From sequence record NC_028957.1: a stretch of 64,000 bases of DNA; one strand, written 5' to 3'. This DNA comes from Escherichia phage vB_EcoM_VR26. Made by a program: the position numbers and the translations under genes. Of this stretch, positions 7,170-19,279 are shown piece by piece. The first letter of the stretch is position 1, and each line of letters begins with the position of its first letter. The notes beneath the pieces are model-generated. The model was not told where the DNA came from and ran no database searches. It worked only from the letters and a program-made list of their open reading frames with translations.

Positions 7170-8729
7170 ATGAAAAAGAATGCATTAGTTCAAAAATGGT
7201 CCGCTCTGCTGGAAAACGAAGCTCTTCCTGAAATCGTTGGTGCTTCTAAACAAGCTATCATCGCTAAAATCTTTGAAAACCAGGAACAAGATATCCTGAC
7301 CGCTCCTGAATACCGTGACGAAAAAATCTCCGAAGCATTTGGTTCTTTCCTGACTGAAGCTGAAATCGGTGGTGACCATGGTTATGATGCTACCAATATC
7401 GCGGCTGGCCAGACCTCTGGTGCAGTAACTCAGATTGGGCCGGCAGTTATGGGTATGGTTCGTCGTGCTATCCCACATCTGATTGCGTTTGATATTTGTG
7501 GCGTACAGCCTCTGAACAACCCGACTGGCCAGGTATTTGCCCTGCGTGCAGTTTACGGTAAAGACCCTGTAGCTGCTGGTGCTAAAGAAGCTTTCCACCC
7601 GATGTATGCTCCGAACGCTATGTTCTCCGGTCAGGGCGCTGCTGAAGCTTTCGAAGCTCTGGCTGCAAGCAAAGTTCTTACCGTTGGTAAAATTTATTCT
7701 CACTTCTTCGAAGCAACCGGTTCCGCACACTACCAGGCTGTTGAAGCTGTAACCGTTGATGCCGCCGCTACTGATGCTGCTAAACTTGACGCTGAAGTTA
7801 CCAAACTGCTCGAAGCTGGTAAGCTGGCAGAAATCGCTGAAGGTATGGCTACCTCTATCGCCGAACTGCAGGAAGGTTTCAACGGTTCTCAGGATAACCC
7901 GTGGAACGAAATGGGCTTCCGCATCGATAAACAAGTTATCGAAGCTAAATCCCGTCAGCTGAAAGCAAGCTACTCTATCGAACTGGCACAGGACCTGCGC
8001 GCTGTTCACGGTATGGATGCTGATGCCGAATTGAGTGGTATTCTGGCTACTGAAATTATGCTGGAAATCAACCGCGAAGTTATCGATTGGATTAACTACT
8101 CCGCACAGGTTGGTAAATCTGGTATGACCAACACCGTTGGCGCTAAAGCTGGTGTGTTTGACTTCCAGGACCCAATTGATATCCGTGGCGCTCGTTGGGC
8201 TGGTGAAAGCTTCAAAGCTTTACTGTTCCAGATTGATAAAGAAGCCGCTGAAATCGCTCGTCAGACCGGTCGTGGTGCAGGTAACTTCATCATCGCTTCC
8301 CGTAACGTAGTTAACGTACTGGCTGCAGTTGATACCTCCGTATCTTATGCTGCTCAGGGTCTGGGTAAAGGTTTCAACGTTGACACCACTAAAGCTGTGT
8401 TCGCTGGTGTTCTGGGTGGCAAATACCGTGTCTATATCGACCAGTATGCTCGCGCAGATTACTTCACCATCGGTTACAAAGGCGCTAACGAAATGGATGC
8501 TGGTATCTACTACGCACCATATGTTGCACTGACCCCGCTGCGTGGCTCTGACCCGAAAAACTTCCAGCCAGTTATGGGCTTCAAAACCCGTTACGGTATC
8601 GGTATTAACCCGTTCGCTGACCCGGCAGCTCAGGCTCCGACCAAGCGTATTCAAAACGGCATGCCGGACATCGTTAACAGCCTCGGCTTGAACGGTTACT
8701 TCCGCCGCGTATATGTTAAAGGAATTTAA
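7170..8729 (+). CDS. 23: Major capsid protein gp23
   Basis: 519 aa (T4 gp23 521 aa); strong similarity to remembered gp23. Confidence 0.97.
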   Translation: MKKNALVQKWSALLENEALPEIVGASKQAIIAKIFENQEQDILTAPEYRDEKISEAFGSFLTEAEIGGDHGYDATNIAAGQTSGAVTQIGPAVMGMVRRAIPHLIAFDICGVQPLNNPTGQVFALRAVYGKDPVAAGAKEAFHPMYAPNAMFSGQGAAEAFEALAASKVLTVGKIYSHFFEATGSAHYQAVEAVTVDAAATDAAKLDAEVTKLLEAGKLAEIAEGMATSIAELQEGFNGSQDNPWNEMGFRIDKQVIEAKSRQLKASYSIELAQDLRAVHGMDADAELSGILATEIMLEINREVIDWINYSAQVGKSGMTNTVGAKAGVFDFQDPIDIRGARWAGESFKALLFQIDKEAAEIARQTGRGAGNFIIASRNVVNVLAAVDTSVSYAAQGLGKGFNVDTTKAVFAGVLGGKYRVYIDQYARADYFTIGYKGANEMDAGIYYAPYVALTPLRGSDPKNFQPVMGFKTRYGIGINPFADPAAQAPTKRIQNGMPDIVNSLGLNGYFRRVYVKGI

Positions 8730-9167: not shown

Positions 9168-10448
9168 ATGGCAAAGATTAACAAATTACTGCGCGAGTCA
9201 ACTACCACTACCAGCAACTCCTTGGGCCGCCCGAATCTTGTTGCTTTGACCCGTGCTACAACCAAATTGATTTACCGCGATATTATCGCTGAACAACGTA
9301 CTAACCAGCCAGTTGCTGCGCTGTACGGTGTTAAATATCTTACTCCTGATAATGAATTCAGTTTCCAGACTGGTGCTACTTATGGTGGTGAAGTTGGTTC
9401 TAAAGACCGTGAAACAATTCCGGAATTTACAACCCCAACTCAGGCCGTAGCTAAAGGTGGATACATTAAATTCCAGAATATCGTTTATAAAGCTCTGGTT
9501 GATAATCCATTTGCATCGACCACAGAAACAGTGTTATCTGATGTTCTGCAAGAAGGTCTTGTTGCATTAACTATTCGTTTAGTTCCTGATGCTGCACACA
9601 CCGAAAAATTTGAAGCTGGTGATGTTGAAATTAGTAACGCCGTGTTCCAGGTTAATAAATGGAATGCTCCTGTTAAATCCCGTAAATTGAAAACTGCATT
9701 AACTGTTGAGCTTGCTCAGGATATGGAAGCAAATGGCTTTAATGCTCCTGCATTCCTGGAAGACCTGCTTGCTACTATTATGGCAGATGAAATTAACAAA
9801 GATGTTCTTCAGTCTCTTATTACCGTTTCCAAGCGTTATAAAGTAACTGGCGTTTCTGACAATGGCACCATCGATTTAACATATGATGCAGCTCCAGAAG
9901 GTGCACGTAAACTGTACGAACTGGTTTGTGAAATGAACTCTGAAATTCAGAAAACTACATCTTACTCTGGTACATTCGTTGTTGCCTCAAGTCGTGTGGC
10001 TGCGATGCTCGCCGGTTCCGGTTGGTTGAAACATAAACCTGAAGATGAACAATGGCTCCCGGAAACCGCGTATGGTTATTTGATTAATGGTCTTCCTGTA
10101 TTCTGTGATGTTAACAGCCCATTGGATTATGTGACTGTTGGTGTTAAAGAGAATTATGGTGGTAACGAGGTCGTGGGCTCAATTTTCTATGCTCCTTATA
10201 CAGAAGGCCTGGACTTAGATGATGAAGAGCATGTAGGCGCGTTTAAGGTCATTGTGGACCCAGACAGCTTGCAGCCATCTATCTCCCTGATGGTTCGATA
10301 TGCACTTTCAGCTAACCCTTACACCGTTGCTAAAGACGACAAAGAAGCTCGTATTATCGATGCAACTAATATGGATTTAATGGCTGGCCAGAGCAACATG
10401 TCTTATCTGCTCGGTGTTAAACTTCCACCAATCATTTATGAGGCGTAA
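9168..10448 (+). CDS. 24: Head vertex protein gp24 (copy 1)
   Basis: 426 aa; N-terminus MAKINKLLRESTTT..., close to remembered T4 gp24 (427 aa). Confidence 0.93.
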   Translation: MAKINKLLRESTTTTSNSLGRPNLVALTRATTKLIYRDIIAEQRTNQPVAALYGVKYLTPDNEFSFQTGATYGGEVGSKDRETIPEFTTPTQAVAKGGYIKFQNIVYKALVDNPFASTTETVLSDVLQEGLVALTIRLVPDAAHTEKFEAGDVEISNAVFQVNKWNAPVKSRKLKTALTVELAQDMEANGFNAPAFLEDLLATIMADEINKDVLQSLITVSKRYKVTGVSDNGTIDLTYDAAPEGARKLYELVCEMNSEIQKTTSYSGTFVVASSRVAAMLAGSGWLKHKPEDEQWLPETAYGYLINGLPVFCDVNSPLDYVTVGVKENYGGNEVVGSIFYAPYTEGLDLDDEEHVGAFKVIVDPDSLQPSISLMVRYALSANPYTVAKDDKEARIIDATNMDLMAGQSNMSYLLGVKLPPIIYEA

Positions 10449-11732
10449 ATGCAAAAGATTAACGCACTAATTCACGAATCAACATTAACGGCGGCCAACC
10501 AGGTCGCCCGTCCTAATTTGCTTTCTTATACTCGAGCTACGAATAAACGAATTTTTAAAGCTCTCGTGGCCGAACAGAAAACTACTCAGCCAGTTGCAGC
10601 GCTGTATGGCGTTCGTGTTCTGAACCCAGATGATAAAATGACTTATCTTGGTGGAGCAACGTTTGCCGGTCAAATTGGTATGTTCGAGCGTAAGAATATT
10701 CCAGAATTTACGAACAAAGACGAAGCTTATGCAGTCGGCGATATGTTCCAGTTTGAAAGCATTGTATTCAAAGCTTTGGAAGCTTCTCCTTTTGCCGGGA
10801 CCCTCGAAACTGATTTGGGTGAAGTTATTTCTGAAGCCATTGCGGCTGGCCATATAAGAATGATGTCAGATGCGGCTTTCACTGATAAATTTGAACAAGG
10901 ACATCCTGAAATTGCTGAAGCCGGTTTCCGTATCGATAAATGGCAGACTGAAGTTAAATCCAGAAAACTGAAAACCTCTTTAACCGTTGAGCTTGCGCAA
11001 GACCTGGAAGCAAATGGTTTCGACGCAACAGATTTTATTGATAATATCCTTGGCATTCAAATGGCAGAGGAAATTAATAAGGACGTACTGCAATCTTTAA
11101 TTACCGTAAGTTCACGTTTTAAAGTCCAGGGTGTTTCCGAAAAAGGTGTACTTAATCTTACTGATGCCGCTTATGATAATGCTCAGGACCGTGCTCGAAC
11201 TCTGTATTATTATATGTGCGAAATGAATTCCGCAGTTCAACGTCAGACTTCGTTCGCTGGTACATATGCAGTCGCTTCTTCCCGTTGTGCAGCTATTTTA
11301 GCCGCTTCTGGCTGGGTTGAGAAAAAGGAAGACCAAGATGAATTGGCCTATGGTGTTCTGAAGAACGGTTTGCCACTTTATGCAGATATGAATAGCCCGT
11401 GCGATTATGTTATTGTTGGTGTAAATGCTGATATGGGTGAAGGCCAGACGGTCGCATCTTTGTATTATGCGCCTTATACGGAAGGTCTTAGTGAAGTTGA
11501 TGATGAGGGTGACACCTCGGTTGGGGAATTCAAGGTTATTGTTGACCCTGAAAGTTTACAGCCTACAGTTGCATTGTTAGCTCGTTATGCACTGACTGCG
11601 AACCCTTATACCGTTGCTAAAGACGATAAAGAAGCTCGCATTATTGATGGGGCTGATATGGATAAGATGGCTAACCAAAGTCAATTGAGTTCTTATCTTG
11701 GTGTTAAACTTCCACCACTGGAAAAAGAATAA
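10449..11732 (+). CDS. Head vertex protein gp24 paralog (copy 2)
   Basis: 427 aa, collinear similarity to copy 1 along whole length (shared KSRKLKT.LTVELAQD.EANGF, INKDVLQSLITVS, NPYTVAKDDKEARIID); directly abutting copy 1. Confidence 0.9.
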   Translation: MQKINALIHESTLTAANQVARPNLLSYTRATNKRIFKALVAEQKTTQPVAALYGVRVLNPDDKMTYLGGATFAGQIGMFERKNIPEFTNKDEAYAVGDMFQFESIVFKALEASPFAGTLETDLGEVISEAIAAGHIRMMSDAAFTDKFEQGHPEIAEAGFRIDKWQTEVKSRKLKTSLTVELAQDLEANGFDATDFIDNILGIQMAEEINKDVLQSLITVSSRFKVQGVSEKGVLNLTDAAYDNAQDRARTLYYYMCEMNSAVQRQTSFAGTYAVASSRCAAILAASGWVEKKEDQDELAYGVLKNGLPLYADMNSPCDYVIVGVNADMGEGQTVASLYYAPYTEGLSEVDDEGDTSVGEFKVIVDPESLQPTVALLARYALTANPYTVAKDDKEARIIDGADMDKMANQSQLSSYLGVKLPPLEKE

Positions 11733-11752
11733 GGGCCTTGCGGCCCTTTTTA
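11733..11752. terminator. Bidirectional terminator between gene 24 paralog and rnlB
   Basis: GGGCC-ttgc-GGCCC hairpin followed by TTTTT. Confidence 0.7.
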
Positions 11753-12757
11753 TTAACTAATTAATGCAATCCAAACATGTCTTAATGTATCTCTTACATT
11801 TGCAATGAGTTGCTTTTTAACTTCAACAGGATTTTCTGCATCGGTTAATTCTAATTCTTCACGGGACGCCTCTTCCAAAATATCTTGGGCTGTTAGTCCC
11901 ATTACCTTTCCGAAATCCTTAGGCGTTACTTCACCAATCTTACTGATAACATTGTTAATACGGTTAACAGTCACATAATCAGTGAATTGCCACAGCAGGT
12001 CCATGTCATCTTGGGACAACACAACAGCAGCCTTGATAGGCTTATCAGACTTTTTCTTTTCGCTAAATTTAGAGTTCTTACATTTAATCGCTACGCGCTC
12101 ACCATTAGGTAACCAGGCAGGAGTATCAGGTTTAAGAACATACCCTTCTGCAGTGAATACTTTACCTTCAACCTTTGCGTCAAAATCGGTGGTATTCGCG
12201 GTAGTCAAACCCGCATTATCTACTGTAAAATTGTAATCAGGAACCACAGAATCCAGGTCGTTAGGGAGCTTAATCAAGTCTTCAAAGCTACCCGTAGCCA
12301 GGCGTGGGGCAACCTTAAATTTATGGATAATACAGAAGGCTTCCATCAATGAATCAGTCAAAACAGATTCAGAGCCATCTTCCTTAGTAACGCGGATATC
12401 AAATACATAGAAATCTTTGTCACCATAATCCACATTCTTCTGGATACCGGCCCCGGCAAACTCACCATAAATTTGGTATGATTGATAATTAATATCCTGT
12501 AAAAGTCTCTGCACAGTTTTAATGGAATCTGCATAGTTCTTGAGTACAATTTCGTAGCCATAGAAATCTTCTGCAGGTGGGATAGGTCCAGTGCGTTTCG
12601 CACATGTCACATTGTCTTGTTCAATGATTAATGAAAAGTTGGTGCCATGAATCTTTTCACGCGCTACCCATTCACCGCTGGTGAAGCCTTGCAGGCGAAT
12701 CTTTTCAATGAACTTGTTGTTATAGTGATTTTCAAGGCTGTTGTATTTCTTAAACAT
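11753..12757 (-). CDS. rnlB: RNA ligase 2 (Rnl2)
   Basis: 334 aa, same as T4 Rnl2; nucleotidyltransferase motif I KIHGTN; N-terminus near-identical to remembered T4 Rnl2. Confidence 0.9.
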
Positions 12758-13487: not shown

Positions 13488-15014
13488 ATGACACAAACTA
13501 CAGGTGAAAAAGAAGGCGTATTTTACGGTTATTCTCTTTATGATTTGAATAAAGAAAAACTAATAACTTTTGATGAATTACTTACGGGTATTCAAGGAGA
13601 GCCCGGAGAAAATGGCGATATTGGACCAAAAGGCCCTATTGGTTTAACAGGTCCTCAAGGACCGAAAGGTGATATCGGGTCAAAAGGTATTAAAGGTGAT
13701 ACAGGTCCTCAAGGTATTCAAGGGCCCGCTGGCCCACAAGGTCCTCAGGGAGAAAAGGGAGTCCAAGGTTTAGCTGGAGTCCAAGGCATTCAAGGACCAG
13801 TCGGCCACCAAGGAGTGAAAGGTGATACCGGCCCTCAAGGTATTCAAGGACCGAAAGGTGATACAGGAGCACAAGGCCCACAAGGTGACAAAGGCGAAAT
13901 GGGTCCGGTGGGTCCGGCTGGTCTAACATGGAAAGGAACATGGGACGCTGATGTAGAGTATTCTATAAATGAGGCTGTCGGATATGGTGGTTCTTTATAT
14001 TTCGCCAAAACAAAAGTTCCTAATGGCGAAATACCAACACCGACTTCTAACTATTGGGGTGTTTTGGCTACCGAGGGTCCACAAGGTCCACAAGGTCAAC
14101 AAGGTCTTAAAGGTGATACCGGTCCTCAAGGTATTCAAGGACCTGTAGGGCCTGTAGGGCCGCAGGGTATTCAGGGACCAAGAGGACTTCAAGGGTCAGA
14201 AGGTGAAATAGGACCGCGGGGTATTCAAGGGCTAAAAGGCGAAACTGGGCCCGCTGGTCCACAGGGTATTCAAGGGCTAAAAGGCGAGGTGGGTGCTCAG
14301 GGTCCTTCTGGTTCTCCTGGACTTACAGGACCAGAAGGACCTCGTGGGTTAACAGGCGAAGCTGGAGCTCAAGGACCTCGTGGTGCTATAGGTCCTATCG
14401 GTTTAACAGGTCCTATCGGTTTAACGGGTCCTCAAGGTATTCAAGGTCCGAAAGGTGATACAGGTCCTCAAGGCTTACAAGGTCCTCAAGGCTTACGAGG
14501 TATTCAAGGAGCTCCTGGAGTAAAAGGAGAAGCGGGTGCACAAGGTCCGAAAGGTGATACAGGAGCACAAGGTCCTATTGGTTTAACTGGACCTAAAGGT
14601 GATACAGGCCCGAGCCCTTATACTGTTTATAATTATTCTAATGTTGCAACTGGTTATGCTGAAATGGTTATGCCTGGTGTGTCATCAAACACAGTATTTA
14701 GACTTCGTTCAGTTGGAACTAATATAGAATATAGTGTTCTAAGTAAAGGCGGAGCTAATAGATATGTAGATTGGCACTTTTCAATTCCAAGTGTTTCCGG
14801 CAATACAGTAAGTACTAATAGCGGAACTAATACATTAACTCCTACAGGTAATTTTACTATTGTGGCGACCGCTTATAATGGACTAAGGGGATTTACAATA
14901 ACATTATGCGAGTGGGGTTCAAGAGCTATTGTTGATATCACTGTTTATCATCATGGGCGTTCGGGAGACACAACCAAAGCTGTGGCTATTCGTATGACTA
15001 CTACAAAATACTAA
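13488..15014 (+). CDS. Collagen-like triple-helix repeat protein with carbohydrate-binding-like insert and C-terminal globular domain
   Basis: 508 aa; two Gly-X-Y tracts (37 and 60 triplets) separated by a W.GTW....Y..N..V.Y.GS.Y insert resembling CBM5/12-type motifs; about 130-aa non-repetitive C-terminal domain; GGAGG Shine-Dalgarno. Confidence 0.85.
   Translation: MTQTTGEKEGVFYGYSLYDLNKEKLITFDELLTGIQGEPGENGDIGPKGPIGLTGPQGPKGDIGSKGIKGDTGPQGIQGPAGPQGPQGEKGVQGLAGVQGIQGPVGHQGVKGDTGPQGIQGPKGDTGAQGPQGDKGEMGPVGPAGLTWKGTWDADVEYSINEAVGYGGSLYFAKTKVPNGEIPTPTSNYWGVLATEGPQGPQGQQGLKGDTGPQGIQGPVGPVGPQGIQGPRGLQGSEGEIGPRGIQGLKGETGPAGPQGIQGLKGEVGAQGPSGSPGLTGPEGPRGLTGEAGAQGPRGAIGPIGLTGPIGLTGPQGIQGPKGDTGPQGLQGPQGLRGIQGAPGVKGEAGAQGPKGDTGAQGPIGLTGPKGDTGPSPYTVYNYSNVATGYAEMVMPGVSSNTVFRLRSVGTNIEYSVLSKGGANRYVDWHFSIPSVSGNTVSTNSGTNTLTPTGNFTIVATAYNGLRGFTITLCEWGSRAIVDITVYHHGRSGDTTKAVAIRMTTTKY
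13596..13928 (+). repeat. Collagen Gly-X-Y coding triplet array 1 (37 triplets)
   Basis: Uninterrupted GXY repeats with recurring GPQGIQG/GDTGPQG units. Confidence 0.9.
14076..14615 (+). repeat. Collagen Gly-X-Y coding triplet array 2 (60 triplets, includes tandem GPIGLTGPIGLTGP)
   Basis: Uninterrupted GXY repeats; direct DNA repeat ggtcctatcggtttaac x2 near 14390. Confidence 0.9.
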
Positions 15015-15023
15015 GGAGCTTTA

Positions 15024-15887
15024 ATGGAACCGGTTAAAGCTGTGTTAGAGCCTGATGTAATAGATGTGGAATATGGTAATACATACTCGGCTACTGTAAC
15101 TCTGTCTCCTATAGAAAATATTCCAGATGGTTCCGTGATAAGATATGATTGGGTTGTTAATAACAAGTTCGTTGGTACGGGTGAAGCTACTCGTACCACC
15201 CAACCATCTCAGACCGGAAATTATGTATTATCATGTAGAGTATTCATTACTCCGCCTAATGAAAATACTGTAATGGTAACAACTAATAAATCATATGGGT
15301 ATGTATATAAAAATTCCGATACAAGTCCAGTAGATGCAGAAATATTATATGATAACAAGATATACCAAGTAGGAAGCAAAGTTAGATTATTAGCCGTTGC
15401 CAATAACCCAGATACCAACTTTGTTAAAGGTATTATATGGAAGGATGCTGATGGTAAGATAATAGGTATAGGTCGGGAATATATCCATACAATGCAATCA
15501 GAGTATGATATAGTTCGAGCTAAAGTTACAATGGATTCGCCTATAAGAGATGAATTTAGTAAGAACTTTACTATACATTTGTACGCTATAAATGTTCAAG
15601 AAGGAACATGTATAAGATATATTCATCCTTTAGACCACAGGGATGCAGGATTTATCTGGTGTGGTTGGTGGGTTATGGATGAAATCCAACGAGCGATAAA
15701 ACTTGGGCTGGATTGGAAAAATCCAAAAGAGCTAGATTTAAATTACAAGTGTGATTTAGAGACATTAGCGTTATTGCTCAAGACATATCCTGAAGCCGAA
15801 GTTCAAGAATCAAGACACGGATATATAATAACCAGACTACAAATTGAGACTGGCGGAATATATGAAAAACCATATGAAGTAAAATAA
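15024..15887 (+). CDS. Hoc-like decoration protein paralog (Ig-like N-terminal region plus Hoc-type capsid-binding C-terminal domain)
   Basis: 287 aa; C-terminal HPLDHRDAGFIWCGWWVMDEIQ...YPEAEVQESRHGYII matches Hoc C-terminus (YVHPLP...YIWCGWWVMD...YPEVDVQESRNG); AGGAG Shine-Dalgarno; 9 nt after collagen-like gene. Confidence 0.8.
   Translation: MEPVKAVLEPDVIDVEYGNTYSATVTLSPIENIPDGSVIRYDWVVNNKFVGTGEATRTTQPSQTGNYVLSCRVFITPPNENTVMVTTNKSYGYVYKNSDTSPVDAEILYDNKIYQVGSKVRLLAVANNPDTNFVKGIIWKDADGKIIGIGREYIHTMQSEYDIVRAKVTMDSPIRDEFSKNFTIHLYAINVQEGTCIRYIHPLDHRDAGFIWCGWWVMDEIQRAIKLGLDWKNPKELDLNYKCDLETLALLLKTYPEAEVQESRHGYIITRLQIETGGIYEKPYEVK
15657..15679 (+). repeat. 23-bp perfect inverted repeat, arm 1 (TGGTGTGGTTGGTGGGTTATGGA, encodes WCGWWVMD)
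   Basis: Exact reverse complement present at about 16112..16134 inside hoc. Confidence 0.85.
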
Positions 15888-15910
15888 AAAGGGCCGCAAG
15901 GCCCTTTTAT
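15888..15910. terminator. Bidirectional terminator between Hoc-like paralog and hoc
   Basis: GGGCC-gcaa-GGCCC hairpin flanked by A-run and T-run. Confidence 0.7.
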
Positions 15911-15912
15911 CA

Positions 15913-17016
15913 TTAATAGACGTAATCGTATATAATACCAGCTTCCAATGCCGAACGGTGGACGATACGACCGTTACGAGATTCCTGTACATCAACTTCC
16001 GGGTAATCACTAAGCATTTTGGCTAATACCGCCAGATGACAATAATATGGTGTATCCTCTTTAGTGGCTTTTTTCCAATCTGTACTTTCAGATGTTAATT
16101 TCTGAATAGCGTCCATAACCCACCAACCACACCAAATATACGCAGTATTACGGACAGGAAGTGGATGTACATAAATTAAAGGACATTCTTCTGGAACAAC
16201 AGGCTCTGCTTCTGTCACCGTAACAGACTTATTACCTGATTTAACTGAATTTGTAAAGCCTGTTTGTGATGCAGTAACTTCACAAGTATATGACTTCAAG
16301 CCTTCAGTGGATTCCGTTATTGCTCTTGTTGCTTCTGTTGAGTTGTCGTCCCATTTATATGCAAGAGTAGCGCCAGGAATAGCAGGGGACACAGAAGCTG
16401 TCAAATTGAATGGAACATCAACCGTTGCAGTAGACGGGCCTGAAATCTCAACAGTGAACTCAGGGAATGTATTGTTTTCGACCGTAACAACTACTGCATC
16501 AGGATTAATAACTTGGTTGTCATAATCTGCAGCAGAAATGGTAATTTGACAAGTTAAAGAAACCGGCCCTGCAACAGTAGCAGTACGAGTAATATCTTTA
16601 GTAATTTCACCAGTAGACCACAAATATGCTATTGTAGCTCCACCAGGTTCACCTGTTACATTAGCCGAAGCGTTATATTCCTCGCCAACTTTAACGGTTG
16701 GAGTGGAAGTTGTTAATGTTGCAGTTGCAGACATAGTCTTGTTATTAACTGTAATAGTTGTTTGAGCCTCTGCCGTTTCAGGCTCTCCTTCTTCCGGCGT
16801 TGTGGTGGCAACAACTTTAATTACTTTTGAACCTGCTGGGCCAGCTGCAATATAATCCATAGTAGCAATAACAGAAGCTTGTGGAACCTCATCAACGGTC
16901 CATACAAAAGATTCGGTACCAGCGACAGCGGCTCCAGCCCCAGTAGCAGTAAAATTAGTTGTTGCACCTATAACCGCTGTAGGTGTTAAAGGGGCAATTG
17001 ATACAGTATAAGCCAT
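15913..17016 (-). CDS. hoc: Highly immunogenic outer capsid protein Hoc
   Basis: 367 aa (T4 Hoc 376 aa); N-terminus MAYTVSIAPLTPTAVIGATTNFTATG like T4 Hoc; Ig-like repeats; C-terminal capsid-binding domain. Confidence 0.88.
   Translation of the reverse strand: MAYTVSIAPLTPTAVIGATTNFTATGAGAAVAGTESFVWTVDEVPQASVIATMDYIAAGPAGSKVIKVVATTTPEEGEPETAEAQTTITVNNKTMSATATLTTSTPTVKVGEEYNASANVTGEPGGATIAYLWSTGEITKDITRTATVAGPVSLTCQITISAADYDNQVINPDAVVVTVENNTFPEFTVEISGPSTATVDVPFNLTASVSPAIPGATLAYKWDDNSTEATRAITESTEGLKSYTCEVTASQTGFTNSVKSGNKSVTVTEAEPVVPEECPLIYVHPLPVRNTAYIWCGWWVMDAIQKLTSESTDWKKATKEDTPYYCHLAVLAKMLSDYPEVDVQESRNGRIVHRSALEAGIIYDYVY
16112..16134 (-). repeat. 23-bp perfect inverted repeat, arm 2
   Basis: Reverse complement of 15657..15679. 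Confidence 0.85.
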
Positions 17017-17044
17017 AAAACCTCCAAGGGCCGAAGCCCTTTTG

Positions 17045-17725
17045 TTAATTTAAACGAATAAAAGATGAGTTACGTGTTTCACGAATAAGAATGGAACCGT
17101 CACGATTGATATAGTAAATCAAACTAAACAATGTTTGGTGTGCGCTTGCATGAGTAAAAGAAGTAGGGCGTTCTTTCCAGTCTGGGGTCTCTTTAATCCA
17201 CTGGTAAATCCACCAAGGGAGAGTACAATATCCAGGAGCTTTGCCCAGCATAAGCAGATTGGGGCTAAAATTTTTAGGCAGTGTAAATTTAGGAGTTTCA
17301 GCTTCGATGATTTGAGCGACAGCTTCTTCAAAGTCTTCGGAAACAAACGGCACTTCAATTTCAACGAGTTTAACTTCTGATTCAGGGACAACTTCCTGGG
17401 TAACTTCGACTACTTCAACGGGTGCTTCTGGAGCATCAAACAAAAGAACAGCTTCAGGTTTAGCTGATTCTTCACCTTCAAACTTACTACCTGATAATTC
17501 ATCATCGGCATTAATAAGGTCGGTGATGCTTAAGCCTTCGTTATCGTCCGGCATAGGCATGTCAGCAAATGCTTTAAGTCCTGCTTCCAGGTCAATCAAC
17601 ATATTATCGAAAGTTTTTGTTTTCTTAACATCAACACCAAGCGATGATGCATATTCAGCTAATTTTTCTTTGGCTTCTTTTTTCTCGAGGATACGAATTT
17701 CCTCAATATAGTTCTTGTCAATCAT
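17045..17725 (-). CDS. inh: Inh-like protein (inhibitor of prohead protease) with Hoc-related C-terminal domain
   Basis: 226 aa (T4 Inh 226 aa); position between hoc and uvsW; C-terminal LPWWIYQWIKETPDWK resembles the Hoc WCGWWVMD...DWK region. Confidence 0.7.
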   Translation of the reverse strand: MIDKNYIEEIRILEKKEAKEKLAEYASSLGVDVKKTKTFDNMLIDLEAGLKAFADMPMPDDNEGLSITDLINADDELSGSKFEGEESAKPEAVLLFDAPEAPVEVVEVTQEVVPESEVKLVEIEVPFVSEDFEEAVAQIIEAETPKFTLPKNFSPNLLMLGKAPGYCTLPWWIYQWIKETPDWKERPTSFTHASAHQTLFSLIYYINRDGSILIRETRNSSFIRLN

Positions 17726-17743
17726 GATGAACCTCGGTTAGTA

Positions 17744-17751
17744 TATAAATA
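17744..17751 (+). promoter_or_regulatory. T4-type late promoter TATAAATA for uvsW
   Basis: Exact TATAAATA about 30 nt before uvsW ATG. Confidence 0.6.
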
Positions 17752-17779
17752 TAGATATATTTATTACCTTGGAATCATC

Positions 17780-19279
17780 ATGGATATCAAAATCAACTTT
17801 TTAAATTTTAGTCATGTACATGTTGAATGTGAAGATAGTATCTTCTATGAACTCCGTGACTATTTCAGTTTTGAAGCCGAAAACTATCGGTTTAACCCTA
17901 AATTCAAAGCGGGAGTTTGGGACGGACGTATCCGTCTCCTGGATTATAACCGTAAATTACCGTACGGCTTAGTTAACCAGATTAAAAAATTCGCTGACCA
18001 GTTTGGTTATTCATTTTGGATTGACCCTCAAATCACCGAGAAAGAGGAAATCTCCCGTGTGGATTTCGATAAATGGGTCGAGTCAAAAGAAATCTATTCA
18101 GGCCATACCAAGATTACTCCCCATTGGTACCAAACAGACGCCGTATACGATGGTCTGGTCAACAGAAGAAAGATATTGAACTTACCTACGTCTGCAGGTA
18201 AAAGCCTCATCCAGGCGCTTCTGGCGCGATATTATCTCGAGAACTATGAAGGCAAGGTTCTTATCCTTGTACCTACAACTGCGCTCGTTGACCAGATGAT
18301 TAATGACTTTGTTGATTATAGATTGTTCCCTCGAGAAGCTTGTCTCGGTATCCGTTCCGGAACTAAACGTGATTCGGATGCAATGATTTATGTGTCTACT
18401 TATCAGACGGCAGTAAAACAACCTAAAGAATGGTTTTCACAGTTCGGTCAGTTTATGAATGATGAATGCCATATGGCTACTGGTAAATCTATTTCGACTG
18501 TTATCGAAGGCCTGACTAATTGTATGTTTAAATTTGGTCTCTCTGGTTCTCTCCGTGACGGCAAAGCAAACCTTATGCAATATATGGGTCTGTTTGGTGA
18601 TATCTTTAAACCAGTATCCACATCCCAATTAATGGATGAAGGACAAGTTACTGACCTTAAGATAAATAGTATTTTCCTTCGATATCCTGATGAATTCACC
18701 GTTAAAATGAAAGGCAAATCTTATCAAGATGAAATCAAGGTAATTACAAAAGCTACGCGTAGAAATAAATGGGTAACAAACCTTGCACTCAAGCTTGCTA
18801 AAAAAGATGAAAACGTCTTTTTGATGTTTAAGAATATCGAGCACGGTAAATCGATGTTTGAAATGCTTAAGGAAGCTGGTCATGAGAATGTGTATTATGT
18901 TTCCGGGGAAGTTGATACAGAAACACGTAACGCATTAAAGGTCATGGCAGAAAATGGAAAGGGAATTATCGTTGTAGCTTCATACGGTGTATTCTCGACG
19001 GGGATTTCCGTTAAAAACCTCCATCATATTATTTTCGCTCATCCGGTCAAGTCAAAGGTAATTGTACTCCAGACAATTGGTCGTGTACTTCGAAAACATG
19101 AATCCAAATCGACCGCAAACGTGTGGGACATCGTGGACGACATGGGGGTTAAACCCAAATCAGCAAACGCTAAAAAGAAATATGTTCACTTGAACTTTGC
19201 ACTGAAACATGCATTAGAGCGTATTCAGCGGTATGCAGACGAAAAATTCAATTATATCATTAAACAGGTGGAAATATAA
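17780..19279 (+). CDS. uvsW: UvsW RNA-DNA / DNA-DNA helicase
   Basis: 499 aa; Walker A LPTSAGKS, DECH box (MNDECH); T4 UvsW-like size and position. Confidence 0.93.
   Translation: MDIKINFLNFSHVHVECEDSIFYELRDYFSFEAENYRFNPKFKAGVWDGRIRLLDYNRKLPYGLVNQIKKFADQFGYSFWIDPQITEKEEISRVDFDKWVESKEIYSGHTKITPHWYQTDAVYDGLVNRRKILNLPTSAGKSLIQALLARYYLENYEGKVLILVPTTALVDQMINDFVDYRLFPREACLGIRSGTKRDSDAMIYVSTYQTAVKQPKEWFSQFGQFMNDECHMATGKSISTVIEGLTNCMFKFGLSGSLRDGKANLMQYMGLFGDIFKPVSTSQLMDEGQVTDLKINSIFLRYPDEFTVKMKGKSYQDEIKVITKATRRNKWVTNLALKLAKKDENVFLMFKNIEHGKSMFEMLKEAGHENVYYVSGEVDTETRNALKVMAENGKGIIVVASYGVFSTGISVKNLHHIIFAHPVKSKVIVLQTIGRVLRKHESKSTANVWDIVDDMGVKPKSANAKKKYVHLNFALKHALERIQRYADEKFNYIIKQVEI

What the first reader, a model, noticed from the sequence alone, without database searches (positions are those of the whole stretch)
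15024..17725. Three genes share a Hoc-type capsid-binding C-terminal domain, including a perfect 23-bp inverted repeat
The Hoc-like paralog (plus strand), hoc (minus strand) and more distantly inh all end in a W-rich domain (WCGWWVMD...DWK...YPE.DVQESR.G). The two best-conserved copies face each other across a bidirectional terminator and share an exact 23-bp inverted repeat (15657..15679 and 16112..16134), implying recent domain duplication and a substrate for inversion or deletion. Two decoration proteins could compete for the same capsid site.
Basis: seen in the sequence. Interest (0 to 1): 0.6.

Follow-up and report, generated by a model that had tools for sequence, protein, structure and literature searches.

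The report
Shared Hoc capsid-anchor domain, three genes
In this T4-like phage three neighbouring head genes (a short Hoc-like gene, hoc and, far more distantly, inh) end in the same capsid-docking domain; the "perfect" 23-base inverted repeat is only the DNA footprint of an invariant tryptophan-rich peptide, not evidence of a recent duplication.

Summary
The 23-nt inverted repeat is exact (15657-15679 / 16112-16134). The Hoc-like paralog and hoc share a C-terminal domain (44% identity over 105 aa, E 4e-28).

The repeat encodes WCGWWVMD. Trp and Met have one codon each, so only three synonymous sites are free, and codon usage gives P~0.07 that all three match. The closest relative, VR25, already differs at one of them (GGC). 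Across the domain, nucleotide identity is 53% and only 17 of 41 identical degenerate residues share a codon. The two domains are 41-46% identical in all five genomes that carry both genes. The paralogy is therefore old, and I saw no sign of gene conversion or inversion.

The window is a Gaprivervirus-like phage. RefSeq already annotates the paralog as Hoc-like, and Fokine et al. 2023 describe phages with two Hoc proteins.

The parts
13488..15014 (+). Collagen-like fibre gene (508 aa) immediately upstream of the Hoc-like paralog. The two genes form a two-gene module conserved in position across related phages.
   Evidence: Pfam Collagen E 2e-47. The same gene pair sits at the same locus in VR25, VR7, VR5, KIT01 and Kosakonia phage 305. 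The sequence is mosaic, 43-96% identity to those phages.
15024..15887 (+). Hoc-like paralog (287 aa): two Ig-like domains (about residues 1-95 and 100-190) followed by a C-terminal Hoc-type capsid-anchor domain.
   Evidence: phrog_1149 'Hoc-like head decoration' E 1e-57. AlphaFold model has pLDDT 91.6. The N-terminal part matches two-Ig receptors, and the C-domain matches 8t1x_X with TM 0.81 and 50% identity. RefSeq annotates the VR25 and VR7 orthologs as Hoc-like.
15606..15887 (+). Capsid-anchor domain of the paralog (residues 195-287).
   Evidence: Scores 121.5 bits against the Hoc-C profile. 44% identical to the hoc anchor.
15657..15679 (+). Left arm of the exact 23-nt inverted repeat. Encodes W-C-G-W-W-V-M-D(first 2 nt) in the paralog.
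15887..15908 (.). Shared hairpin AAAAGGGCC-GCAA-GGCCCTTTT between the two convergent genes. Candidate bidirectional intrinsic terminator.
   Evidence: Terminator scan. Folds at -15.3 kcal/mol, z -3.9. The same hairpin is reused at 11733-11750.
16112..16134 (-). Right arm of the exact 23-nt inverted repeat. Encodes the same WCGWWVMD peptide in hoc.
15913..17016 (-). [quoted passage not shown]
   Evidence: Full-length match to T4 Hoc in PDB entries 5vf3/8t1x, E 5e-79. phrog_1149 E 3e-115.
17026..17041 (.). Small GC hairpin (AAGGGC-TTCG-GCCCTT on the minus strand) between the inh stop codon and the hoc ribosome-binding site.
   Evidence: Function not tested.
17045..17725 (-). inh (226 aa): N-terminal helical region, long acidic disordered linker, and a C-terminal domain.
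   Evidence: phrog_1051 'minor head protein inhibitor of protease' E 1e-88. AlphaFold segments.
17057..17245 (-). Inh residues 161-223: a divergent Hoc-type anchor domain (…YCTLPWWIYQWIKETPDWK…ILIRETRNSSFI).

Best explanation
The locus holds three members of one domain family, the Hoc C-terminal capsid-anchor domain. In T4 this domain docks one protein at the centre of each expanded gp23* hexamer. hoc carries it behind three Ig-like domains. The upstream convergent gene carries it behind two Ig-like domains. inh carries a strongly diverged copy behind a helical and acidic disordered N-terminal part. The 23-nt perfect inverted repeat is a by-product of protein constraint. It encodes WCGWWVMD, the most invariant peptide of the family, which contains the gp23*-contacting Trp306, Trp309 and Trp310 and the loop-stabilising Asp313 of T4 Hoc. 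Five of its eight codons (three Trp, one Met, and the counted first two bases of Asp) cannot vary, and the other three use the phage's commonest codons. The paralogs are old and evolve independently. The paralog, together with the collagen-like gene, behaves as a horizontally exchanged cassette. Inferred mechanism: after capsid expansion Hoc and the paralog bind the same hexamer-centre site as monomers. They would share the sites according to expression and affinity, giving a capsid with two lengths or specificities of Ig fibre. Inh probably also uses its anchor to sit on gp23 capsomers. Shown here: homology, fold, residue conservation, mosaicism, and the codon argument. Inferred: capsid binding, competition, and any role of the Inh anchor.
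For: Repeat and codons. Only the Cys, Gly and Val third positions are free, and P(same codon) is 0.56 x 0.35 x 0.37 = 0.07. Domain-wide nt identity is 53%, and 17 of 41 identical degenerate residues share a codon. Relatives: VR25 hoc has GGC; KIT01 has TGC versus TGT; VR7 and VR5 paralogs have Met instead of Cys. The exact 23-mer occurs once each in seven other phage contigs. Within-genome identity of the paralog anchor to the Hoc anchor is 41-46% in all five genomes, while each gene shows its own mosaic pattern between phages. WCGWWVMD is nearly invariant among Hoc homologs. Contact residues are listed in Fokine et al. 2023, PMC10385173, and the paralog keeps 14/16 (Y304F, N358H). The gp23 stretch G326-R344 is 18/19 identical to T4. 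Paralog model versus 8t1x: TM 0.81. Kosakonia phage 305 keeps the collagen-like gene and the paralog, but hoc is reduced to a remnant ending in ...LEAGTIYSYVY*. Inh evidence. The WW motif and the E-T-R-N loop are invariant in 31 Inh sequences.
Confidence: 0.8

Rival explanations
1. One reading: a recent in-situ duplication of the anchor domain left a perfect 23-bp inverted repeat, which now acts as a substrate for inversion or deletion.
For: The repeat is exact and the two genes are adjacent and convergent. An inversion between the arms would be in frame and would swap the two tails, so it would probably be tolerated (my inference from the sequence).
Against: The domains share 44% aa and 53% nt identity, and synonymous sites are saturated. 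The paralog's anchor is more similar to Hoc-like proteins of other genera. The repeat is imperfect in VR25, VR7, VR5 and KIT01. Within-genome divergence is constant at 41-46%. All six related loci keep the same gene orientation. From memory, 23 nt is below the homology length reported for efficient T4 recombination (about 50 bp); I did not check this figure here. Inverted repeats do not produce deletions.
Confidence: 0.04
2. A short-tract gene conversion between the two anchors homogenised the 23-36 nt around the WW motif in this strain only.
For: The window phage is the only one of five genomes with a perfect match. Identity stays at 86% over 36 nt.
Against: One synonymous C-to-T change relative to VR25 hoc (GGC to GGT, the commonest Gly codon at 51%) is enough to explain it. 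VR5 hoc also has GGT. The flanking identity is what the conserved peptide IWCGWWVMD.IQ predicts.
Confidence: 0.08
3. The resemblance between Inh and Hoc is spurious or convergent (a Trp-rich helix plus a charged loop), and Inh has no Hoc-type anchor.
For: Pairwise BLASTP is not significant. Shallow-profile hhalign gave only E 0.05. Sequence identity is 16-25%. The AlphaFold model is of moderate confidence.
Confidence: 0.1
4. The paralog does not compete with Hoc. It binds a different capsomer class or a different partner, for example special hexamers, one of the two gp24 paralogs, or the collagen-like fibre, so that the two decorations coexist without sharing sites.
For: The paralog differs at Y304F and N358H. 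It is always linked to a collagen-like gene. These phages also have two gp24 genes.
Against: 14/16 contact residues and the fold are conserved, and the gp23 docking stretch is conserved. Loss of hoc in Kosakonia phage 305, where the paralog is kept, suggests redundancy. gp24 duplication occurs across the wider Dhakavirus/Kanagawavirus group (VR7, IME341, PSD2002, IME523). I did not check whether all of those phages carry the paralog.
Confidence: 0.15

Closest known systems
T4 Hoc (highly immunogenic outer capsid protein) and its C-terminal capsid-binding domain (PDB 8t1x/8t9r; Fokine et al. 2023, PMC10385173)
   Same: The window hoc is a full-length ortholog (E 5e-79). The paralog has the same anchor fold (TM 0.81, 50% identity) behind a string of Ig-like domains, and it keeps the WW motif, Arg300, Asp313 and the ESR-x-G loop.
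   Different: The paralog has two rather than three Ig-like domains, carries Y304F and N358H, lies on the opposite strand, and is linked to a collagen-like gene.
Phages with two Hoc-like proteins (Serratia phage Muldoon, Enterobacter phage PG7) described by Fokine et al. 2023
   Same: A second, shorter protein carries the same capsid-binding domain, and the authors proposed that it functionalises the capsid with other ligands. About 190 more matched places than records among 1338 phage genomes suggests that second copies are not rare.
   Different: Here the two genes are convergent across a shared terminator. In Muldoon they are adjacent on the same strand. The paralog here is co-inherited with a collagen-like gene.
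VR7 ORF197w / VR25 gp247 'Hoc-like head decoration' (RefSeq NC_014792, NC_028925)
   Same: Direct orthologs or alleles of the paralog at the same locus. VR25 is 98.6% identical. The VR7 allele is about 40% identical.
   Different: The window phage is a distinct strain. Only in it do the two WCGWWVMD-coding stretches coincide base for base.
T4 Inh ('inhibitor of prohead protease gp21', minor head protein; PHROG 1051; Pfam PF26097 and PF26098 in precomputed annotations)
   Same: The window inh is a clear ortholog, 61% identical to the T6 protein, with an invariant C-terminal region.
   Different: The annotations I could see treat Inh as its own family. Hoc-like hits carry no Pfam family on the anchor, and Fokine 2023 does not mention Inh. 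The link between the Inh C-domain and the Hoc anchor is therefore new as far as I could check.

Membership tests
Hoc family (applied to the paralog, 15024-15887) | C-terminal capsid-binding domain with a four-stranded sheet plus helical-bundle fold | tested here: met
   BLASTP E 4e-28 to the window Hoc. 121.5 bits to the Hoc-C profile. AlphaFold model pLDDT 91.6, TM 0.81 and rmsd 3.0 A to 8t1x_X.
Hoc family (applied to the paralog) | Conserved gp23*-contacting and loop-stabilising residues (T4 numbering: Y293, H295, H299, R300, Y304, W306, W309, W310, D313, Q354, E355-S356-R357-N358-G359, Y360) | tested here: met
   14/16 identical; the exceptions are Y304F and N358H. Residue list from PMC10385173; alignment.
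Hoc family (applied to the paralog) | N-terminal string of Ig-like domains | tested here: met
   The model shows two beta-sandwich domains. Top Foldseek hits are two-Ig Fc receptors and other Ig/FnIII tandems. There was no Pfam Ig hit.
Hoc family (applied to the paralog) | Binds as a monomer at the centre of expanded gp23* hexamers and is present in virions | not testable with these tools
   Indirect only: the gp23 docking stretch G326-R344 is 18/19 identical to T4, and hoc has decayed in Kosakonia phage 305 where the paralog persists.
Hoc-C anchor domain family (applied to Inh residues 161-223) | Sequence homology to the anchor domain | tested here: met
   [not shown]
Hoc-C anchor domain family (applied to Inh) | Same fold | tested here: met
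   [not shown]
Hoc-C anchor domain family (applied to Inh) | Capsid-contact residues conserved | tested here: inconclusive
   Kept: Y304, W309, W310, E355, R357, N358. Conservative changes: R300K, S356T. Changed: W306T, D313Q, Q354R, G359S, Y360S. Strand 1 (Y293/H295) did not align.
Hoc family as a whole (applied to Inh) | Ig-like display domains N-terminal to the anchor | tested here: not met
   The Inh N-terminal part is helical (residues 4-54) followed by a disordered acidic linker (57-146). Inh therefore shares the anchor domain but is not a Hoc.
Programmed invertible segment (Gin/Cin/Hin-type) | Inverted repeats bounding the segment, plus an adjacent site-specific recombinase | tested here: not met
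   No recombinase-like ORF lies next to the segment. The neighbours are the collagen-like gene, inh and uvsW. The repeat lies inside coding sequence and is imperfect in relatives.
Bidirectional intrinsic terminator | GC-rich hairpin flanked by an A-run upstream and a T-run downstream, so that both strands read hairpin plus U-tract | tested here: met
   AAAAA-GGGCC-GCAA-GGCCC-TTTT, -15.3 kcal/mol, 0 of 200 shuffles as stable. Termination itself was not measured.

The most novel reading that the evidence does not exclude
Inh, annotated as the 'prohead protease inhibitor / minor head protein' and found next to hoc in T4-like phages, is a third, unrecognised carrier of the Hoc capsomer-centre anchor. 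T4-type phages including T4 would then encode at least two proteins that dock at gp23 hexamer centres. Inh's altered contact residues would let it occupy that site in a different capsid state (for example the unexpanded prohead) or in competition with Hoc, linking its reported effect on maturation to lattice binding. In this phage three anchor-bearing proteins would partition the same set of sites.
Probability: 0.4. Interest if true: 0.7.

Novelty: new variant of a known kind. Interest (0 to 1): 0.42.

Why it matters
The inverted repeat is ordinary. It is a useful example of how an invariant peptide rich in Trp and Met can look like recent DNA duplication. The paralog adds one more case, already annotated, to the phages with two Hoc-like proteins described in 2023. 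It also brings some comparative evidence: independent mosaic exchange, linkage to a collagen-like gene, and decay of hoc where the paralog persists.

The result with real value is the Inh link. Inh is barely characterised and has no solved structure. Neither of the two T4 head reviews I searched mentions it. A Hoc-type anchor at its C-terminus gives a concrete, testable hypothesis for where Inh sits and how it is recruited. It would also matter for T4 display and vaccine platforms that assume Hoc is the only ligand of the hexamer-centre site.

Tried and rejected
- **Pairwise BLASTP of Inh against Hoc or the paralog:** not significant.
- **hhalign with shallow profiles:** only E 0.05. It became significant only after I collected 150 diverse anchor domains with the exhaustive search.
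- **First-pass exhaustive Hoc-C profile search:** recruited no Inh protein at E <= 0.001. The 218-220-aa hits P0263 and P0270 are not Inh.
- **Pfam and NCBIfam:** gave nothing for the three proteins.
- **Literature searches for a Hoc-Inh link or for the VR7 proteome:** found nothing relevant. Miller et al. 2003 is not held.
- **Mosaic breakpoint at the paralog's anchor boundary:** I first read a blastn extension (window 15610-18000 versus VR7) this way. Per-domain protein identities showed that the VR7 anchor is only 53% identical, so I dropped the idea.
- **gp24 duplication as the reason for two Hoc-type proteins:** considered but not pursued. The duplication occurs across the wider Dhakavirus/Kanagawavirus group, and I did not test its co-occurrence with the paralog.
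- **Exact late-promoter motifs for hoc, inh or the cassette:** not found. Only one-mismatch variants occur.
Full report
**What the window is.** Region 13.4-17.8 kb matches T4-like coliphages of the Gaprivervirus/Dhakavirus group. The best match is vB_EcoM_VR25 (98% identity, 75% coverage), followed by VR7 and VR5. Gene order is gp23 (7170-8729), two gp24 copies, rnlB, 24.2, 24.3, a collagen-like gene (13488-15014, +), a Hoc-like gene (15024-15887, +), hoc (15913-17016, -), inh (17045-17725, -) and uvsW (17780-19279, +). RefSeq already labels the VR25 and VR7 orthologs of the plus-strand gene 'Hoc-like head decoration'. The original VR7 note reads 'similar to bacteriophage T4 Hoc'.

**The observation.** The two 23-mers are exact reverse complements and the match cannot be extended by a base. 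They lie inside a 36-nt arm pair at 86% complementarity. The two genes converge on the hairpin AAAAGGGCC-GCAA-GGCCCTTTT (15887-15908). It folds at -15.3 kcal/mol, and none of 200 shuffles folded as well. The C-termini of the paralog and Hoc align without gaps over 105 residues at 44% identity, E 4e-28.

**Why the repeat is exact.** It encodes W-C-G-W-W-V-M-D.
- Trp and Met have one codon each, and only the first two bases of Asp are counted. Only the third positions of Cys, Gly and Val are free.
- From 46.5 kb of long ORFs in this window, the chance that two genes use the same codon is 0.56, 0.35 and 0.37 respectively. That gives P = 0.07 for a perfect 23-mer once the peptide is conserved. Both genes simply use the commonest codons (TGT, GGT, GTT).
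- Over the 105 aligned codons, nucleotide identity is 53%. Of 41 identical residues with degenerate codons, only 17 use the same codon. Synonymous sites are saturated.
- In VR25 the hoc copy reads GGC. In KIT01 the paralog reads TGC. In VR7 and VR5 the paralog has Met instead of Cys. The perfect pair is thus peculiar to this strain.
- The same 23-mer occurs once each in seven other phage contigs.
- WCGWWVMD is the most conserved stretch of the whole family. In the T4 Hoc-gp23* structure it holds the contact residues Trp306, Trp309 and Trp310, and Asp313, which holds the binding loop in place (Fokine et al. 2023, PMC10385173).

**Age and mode of evolution.** The paralog's anchor is more similar to Hoc-like proteins of Serratia and Kosakonia phages (up to 62-63% over the anchor) than to its own hoc. 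Within-genome identity between the two anchors is 41-46% in all five genomes that have both, so there is no concerted evolution.

Between phages the genes are mosaic, and each has its own pattern:

| Part | Window vs VR7 | Window vs KIT01 |
|---|---|---|
| Collagen-like | 43% | 59% |
| Paralog, Ig domains | 30% | 95% |
| Paralog, anchor | 53% | 88% |
| Hoc, Ig domains | 98% | 34% |
| Hoc, anchor | 100% | 69% |
| Inh | 99% | 63% |

The paralog therefore moves horizontally as a unit. The pair formed by the collagen-like gene and the paralog is found at this locus in VR25, VR7, VR5, KIT01 and Kosakonia phage 305. In Kosakonia phage 305 the canonical hoc is reduced to a roughly 360-bp remnant. On the inh strand this remnant still reads ...LEAGTIYSYVY*, while the paralog is intact. 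This is what one would expect if the two proteins are functionally redundant.

**What the paralog most likely does.** Its AlphaFold model (pLDDT 91.6) has two Ig-like sandwiches and an anchor. The anchor superposes on the solved T4 Hoc C-domain, 8t1x_X, with TM 0.81 and 50% identity. Fourteen of the sixteen residues that Fokine et al. list as contacting gp23* or stabilising the loop are identical; the exceptions are Y304F and N358H. The gp23 stretch that Hoc docks on (G326-R344) is 18/19 identical to T4, including Asp336 and Arg344. The likely mechanism is the T4 one: a monomer docks at the centre of each expanded hexamer. Hoc and the paralog would then share those sites. Fokine et al. already describe phages with two Hoc-like proteins (Muldoon, PG7) and suggest that the anchor is used to display other ligands. 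In the phage collection, 1338 records carry the domain at 1532 places. This part is a further instance of a known kind. Binding and competition are inferred, not shown.

**Inh.** Pairwise BLASTP sees nothing, and shallow profiles give only E 0.05. I therefore searched 1.84 billion representative proteins with a profile of 12 anchor domains and collected 150 hits. With that material the following tests agree:
- A profile of 158 anchor domains (those hits plus the window copies) aligns to an Inh profile with Prob 93.6% and E 2.1e-7. The alignment spans Inh residues 161-223 over 60 columns, pairing WW with WW, DWK with DWK and ETRN with ESRN.
- The same profile scores 120 Inh sequences at 16-22.8 bits, a per-sequence P of 4e-9 to 5e-7.
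- Among all 455 six-frame ORFs of at least 50 aa in the window, the profile hits Hoc (124.6 bits), the paralog (121.5 bits) and Inh (16.5 bits). The next ORF scores 3.5 bits. Five thousand shuffles of the Inh C-terminus never exceeded 9.9 bits, against 19.0 for the real sequence.
- An Inh-C HMM hits Hoc-like proteins in return; P0276 scores 22.6 bits. Some bona fide Hoc-C proteins carry Inh-like 'LPWWIYD' motifs.

I rate homology of the Inh C-terminus with the Hoc anchor at about 0.85-0.9.

The caveats are these. By sequence-profile search alone it would not pass a database-wide threshold (E about 7). Strand 1 does not align. Five contact positions differ (W306T, D313Q, Q354R, G359S, Y360S), although the WW motif and the E-T-R-N loop are invariant in Inh. 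Inh is not a Hoc: its N-terminal part is helical and then acidic and disordered, with no Ig domains.

As for prior knowledge, I found no paper that states the link. Fokine 2023 does not mention Inh, and neither do the two T4 head reviews I searched. Precomputed Pfam labels give Inh its own families, PF26097 and PF26098. A C-terminally truncated Inh lacks PF26098, so that family corresponds to the C-terminal part. The Hoc-like hits carry no Pfam family on the anchor. I could not inspect the Pfam entries themselves.

**Recombination.** An inversion between the arms would swap the two tails in frame and would probably be viable. Nothing suggests that it happens. All six related loci have the same orientation, there is no adjacent recombinase, and the paralogs show no exchange. 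From memory, efficient T4 recombination needs roughly 50 bp of homology; I did not verify this figure. Inverted repeats do not produce deletions.

**Verdict.** The inference of recent duplication is wrong. The competition idea is plausible but had already been proposed for other phages.

Noticed in passing
window 11731-11754 and 15883-15906: The terminator hairpin between the paralog and hoc (GGGCC-GCAA-GGCCC with its A and T flanks) recurs as a 24-nt exact inverted copy between gene 24(2) and rnlB. That is another pair of convergent genes, so the phage reuses one hairpin at convergent gene ends.
   Followed up: partly
window 9168-10448 and 10449-11732: There are two tandem gp24 (capsid vertex protein) genes of 426 and 427 aa. 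About 117 of 1415 phage records show two copies, in the Dhakavirus/Gaprivervirus/Kanagawavirus group. What two vertex proteins do is unexplained.
   Followed up: partly
window 13488-15014: The collagen-like protein has a non-collagen insert (about residues 148-190, WKGTW...Y..G..Y.A motif) and a 124-aa C-terminal domain. That C-terminal domain is also found in JS10, in 137-145-kb phages (A7_1, A5-4; more weakly W70, A73) and in 43-50-kb phages (e4/1c, AugustePiccard, RobRod40 and others), where it is annotated as tail fibre. It is always next to the Hoc-like paralog in the T4-like phages examined. Whether it is a head or a tail fibre is unknown.
   Followed up: partly
L003 (Kosakonia phage 305) 5841-6202: The gap between the Hoc-like gene and inh holds a decayed hoc on the minus strand. 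It contains stop codons and Ig-like fragments and ends in ...LEAGTIYSYVY*, with the anchor core deleted. The paralog is the only intact Hoc-type gene in that phage.
   Followed up: partly
[not shown]
   Followed up: no
proteins P0260-P0262, P0267, P0271, P0258: Some homologs carry the Hoc anchor at the N-terminus, followed by other domains, as noted for PG7 by Fokine 2023. One 1314-aa protein (P0258) matches part of the anchor profile in eight separate stretches.
   Followed up: no
window 17026-17041: A GC hairpin with a TTCG loop lies between the inh stop codon and the hoc ribosome-binding site on the minus strand. It might attenuate or stabilise the inh-hoc transcript.
   Followed up: no
literature (bioRxiv 10.1101/2025.11.20.689424): A transposon screen of T4 (HIDEN-SEQ) lists inh and hoc among the few genes that appeared essential despite earlier reports that they are dispensable. 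This is possibly relevant to a shared role at the capsid.
   Followed up: no
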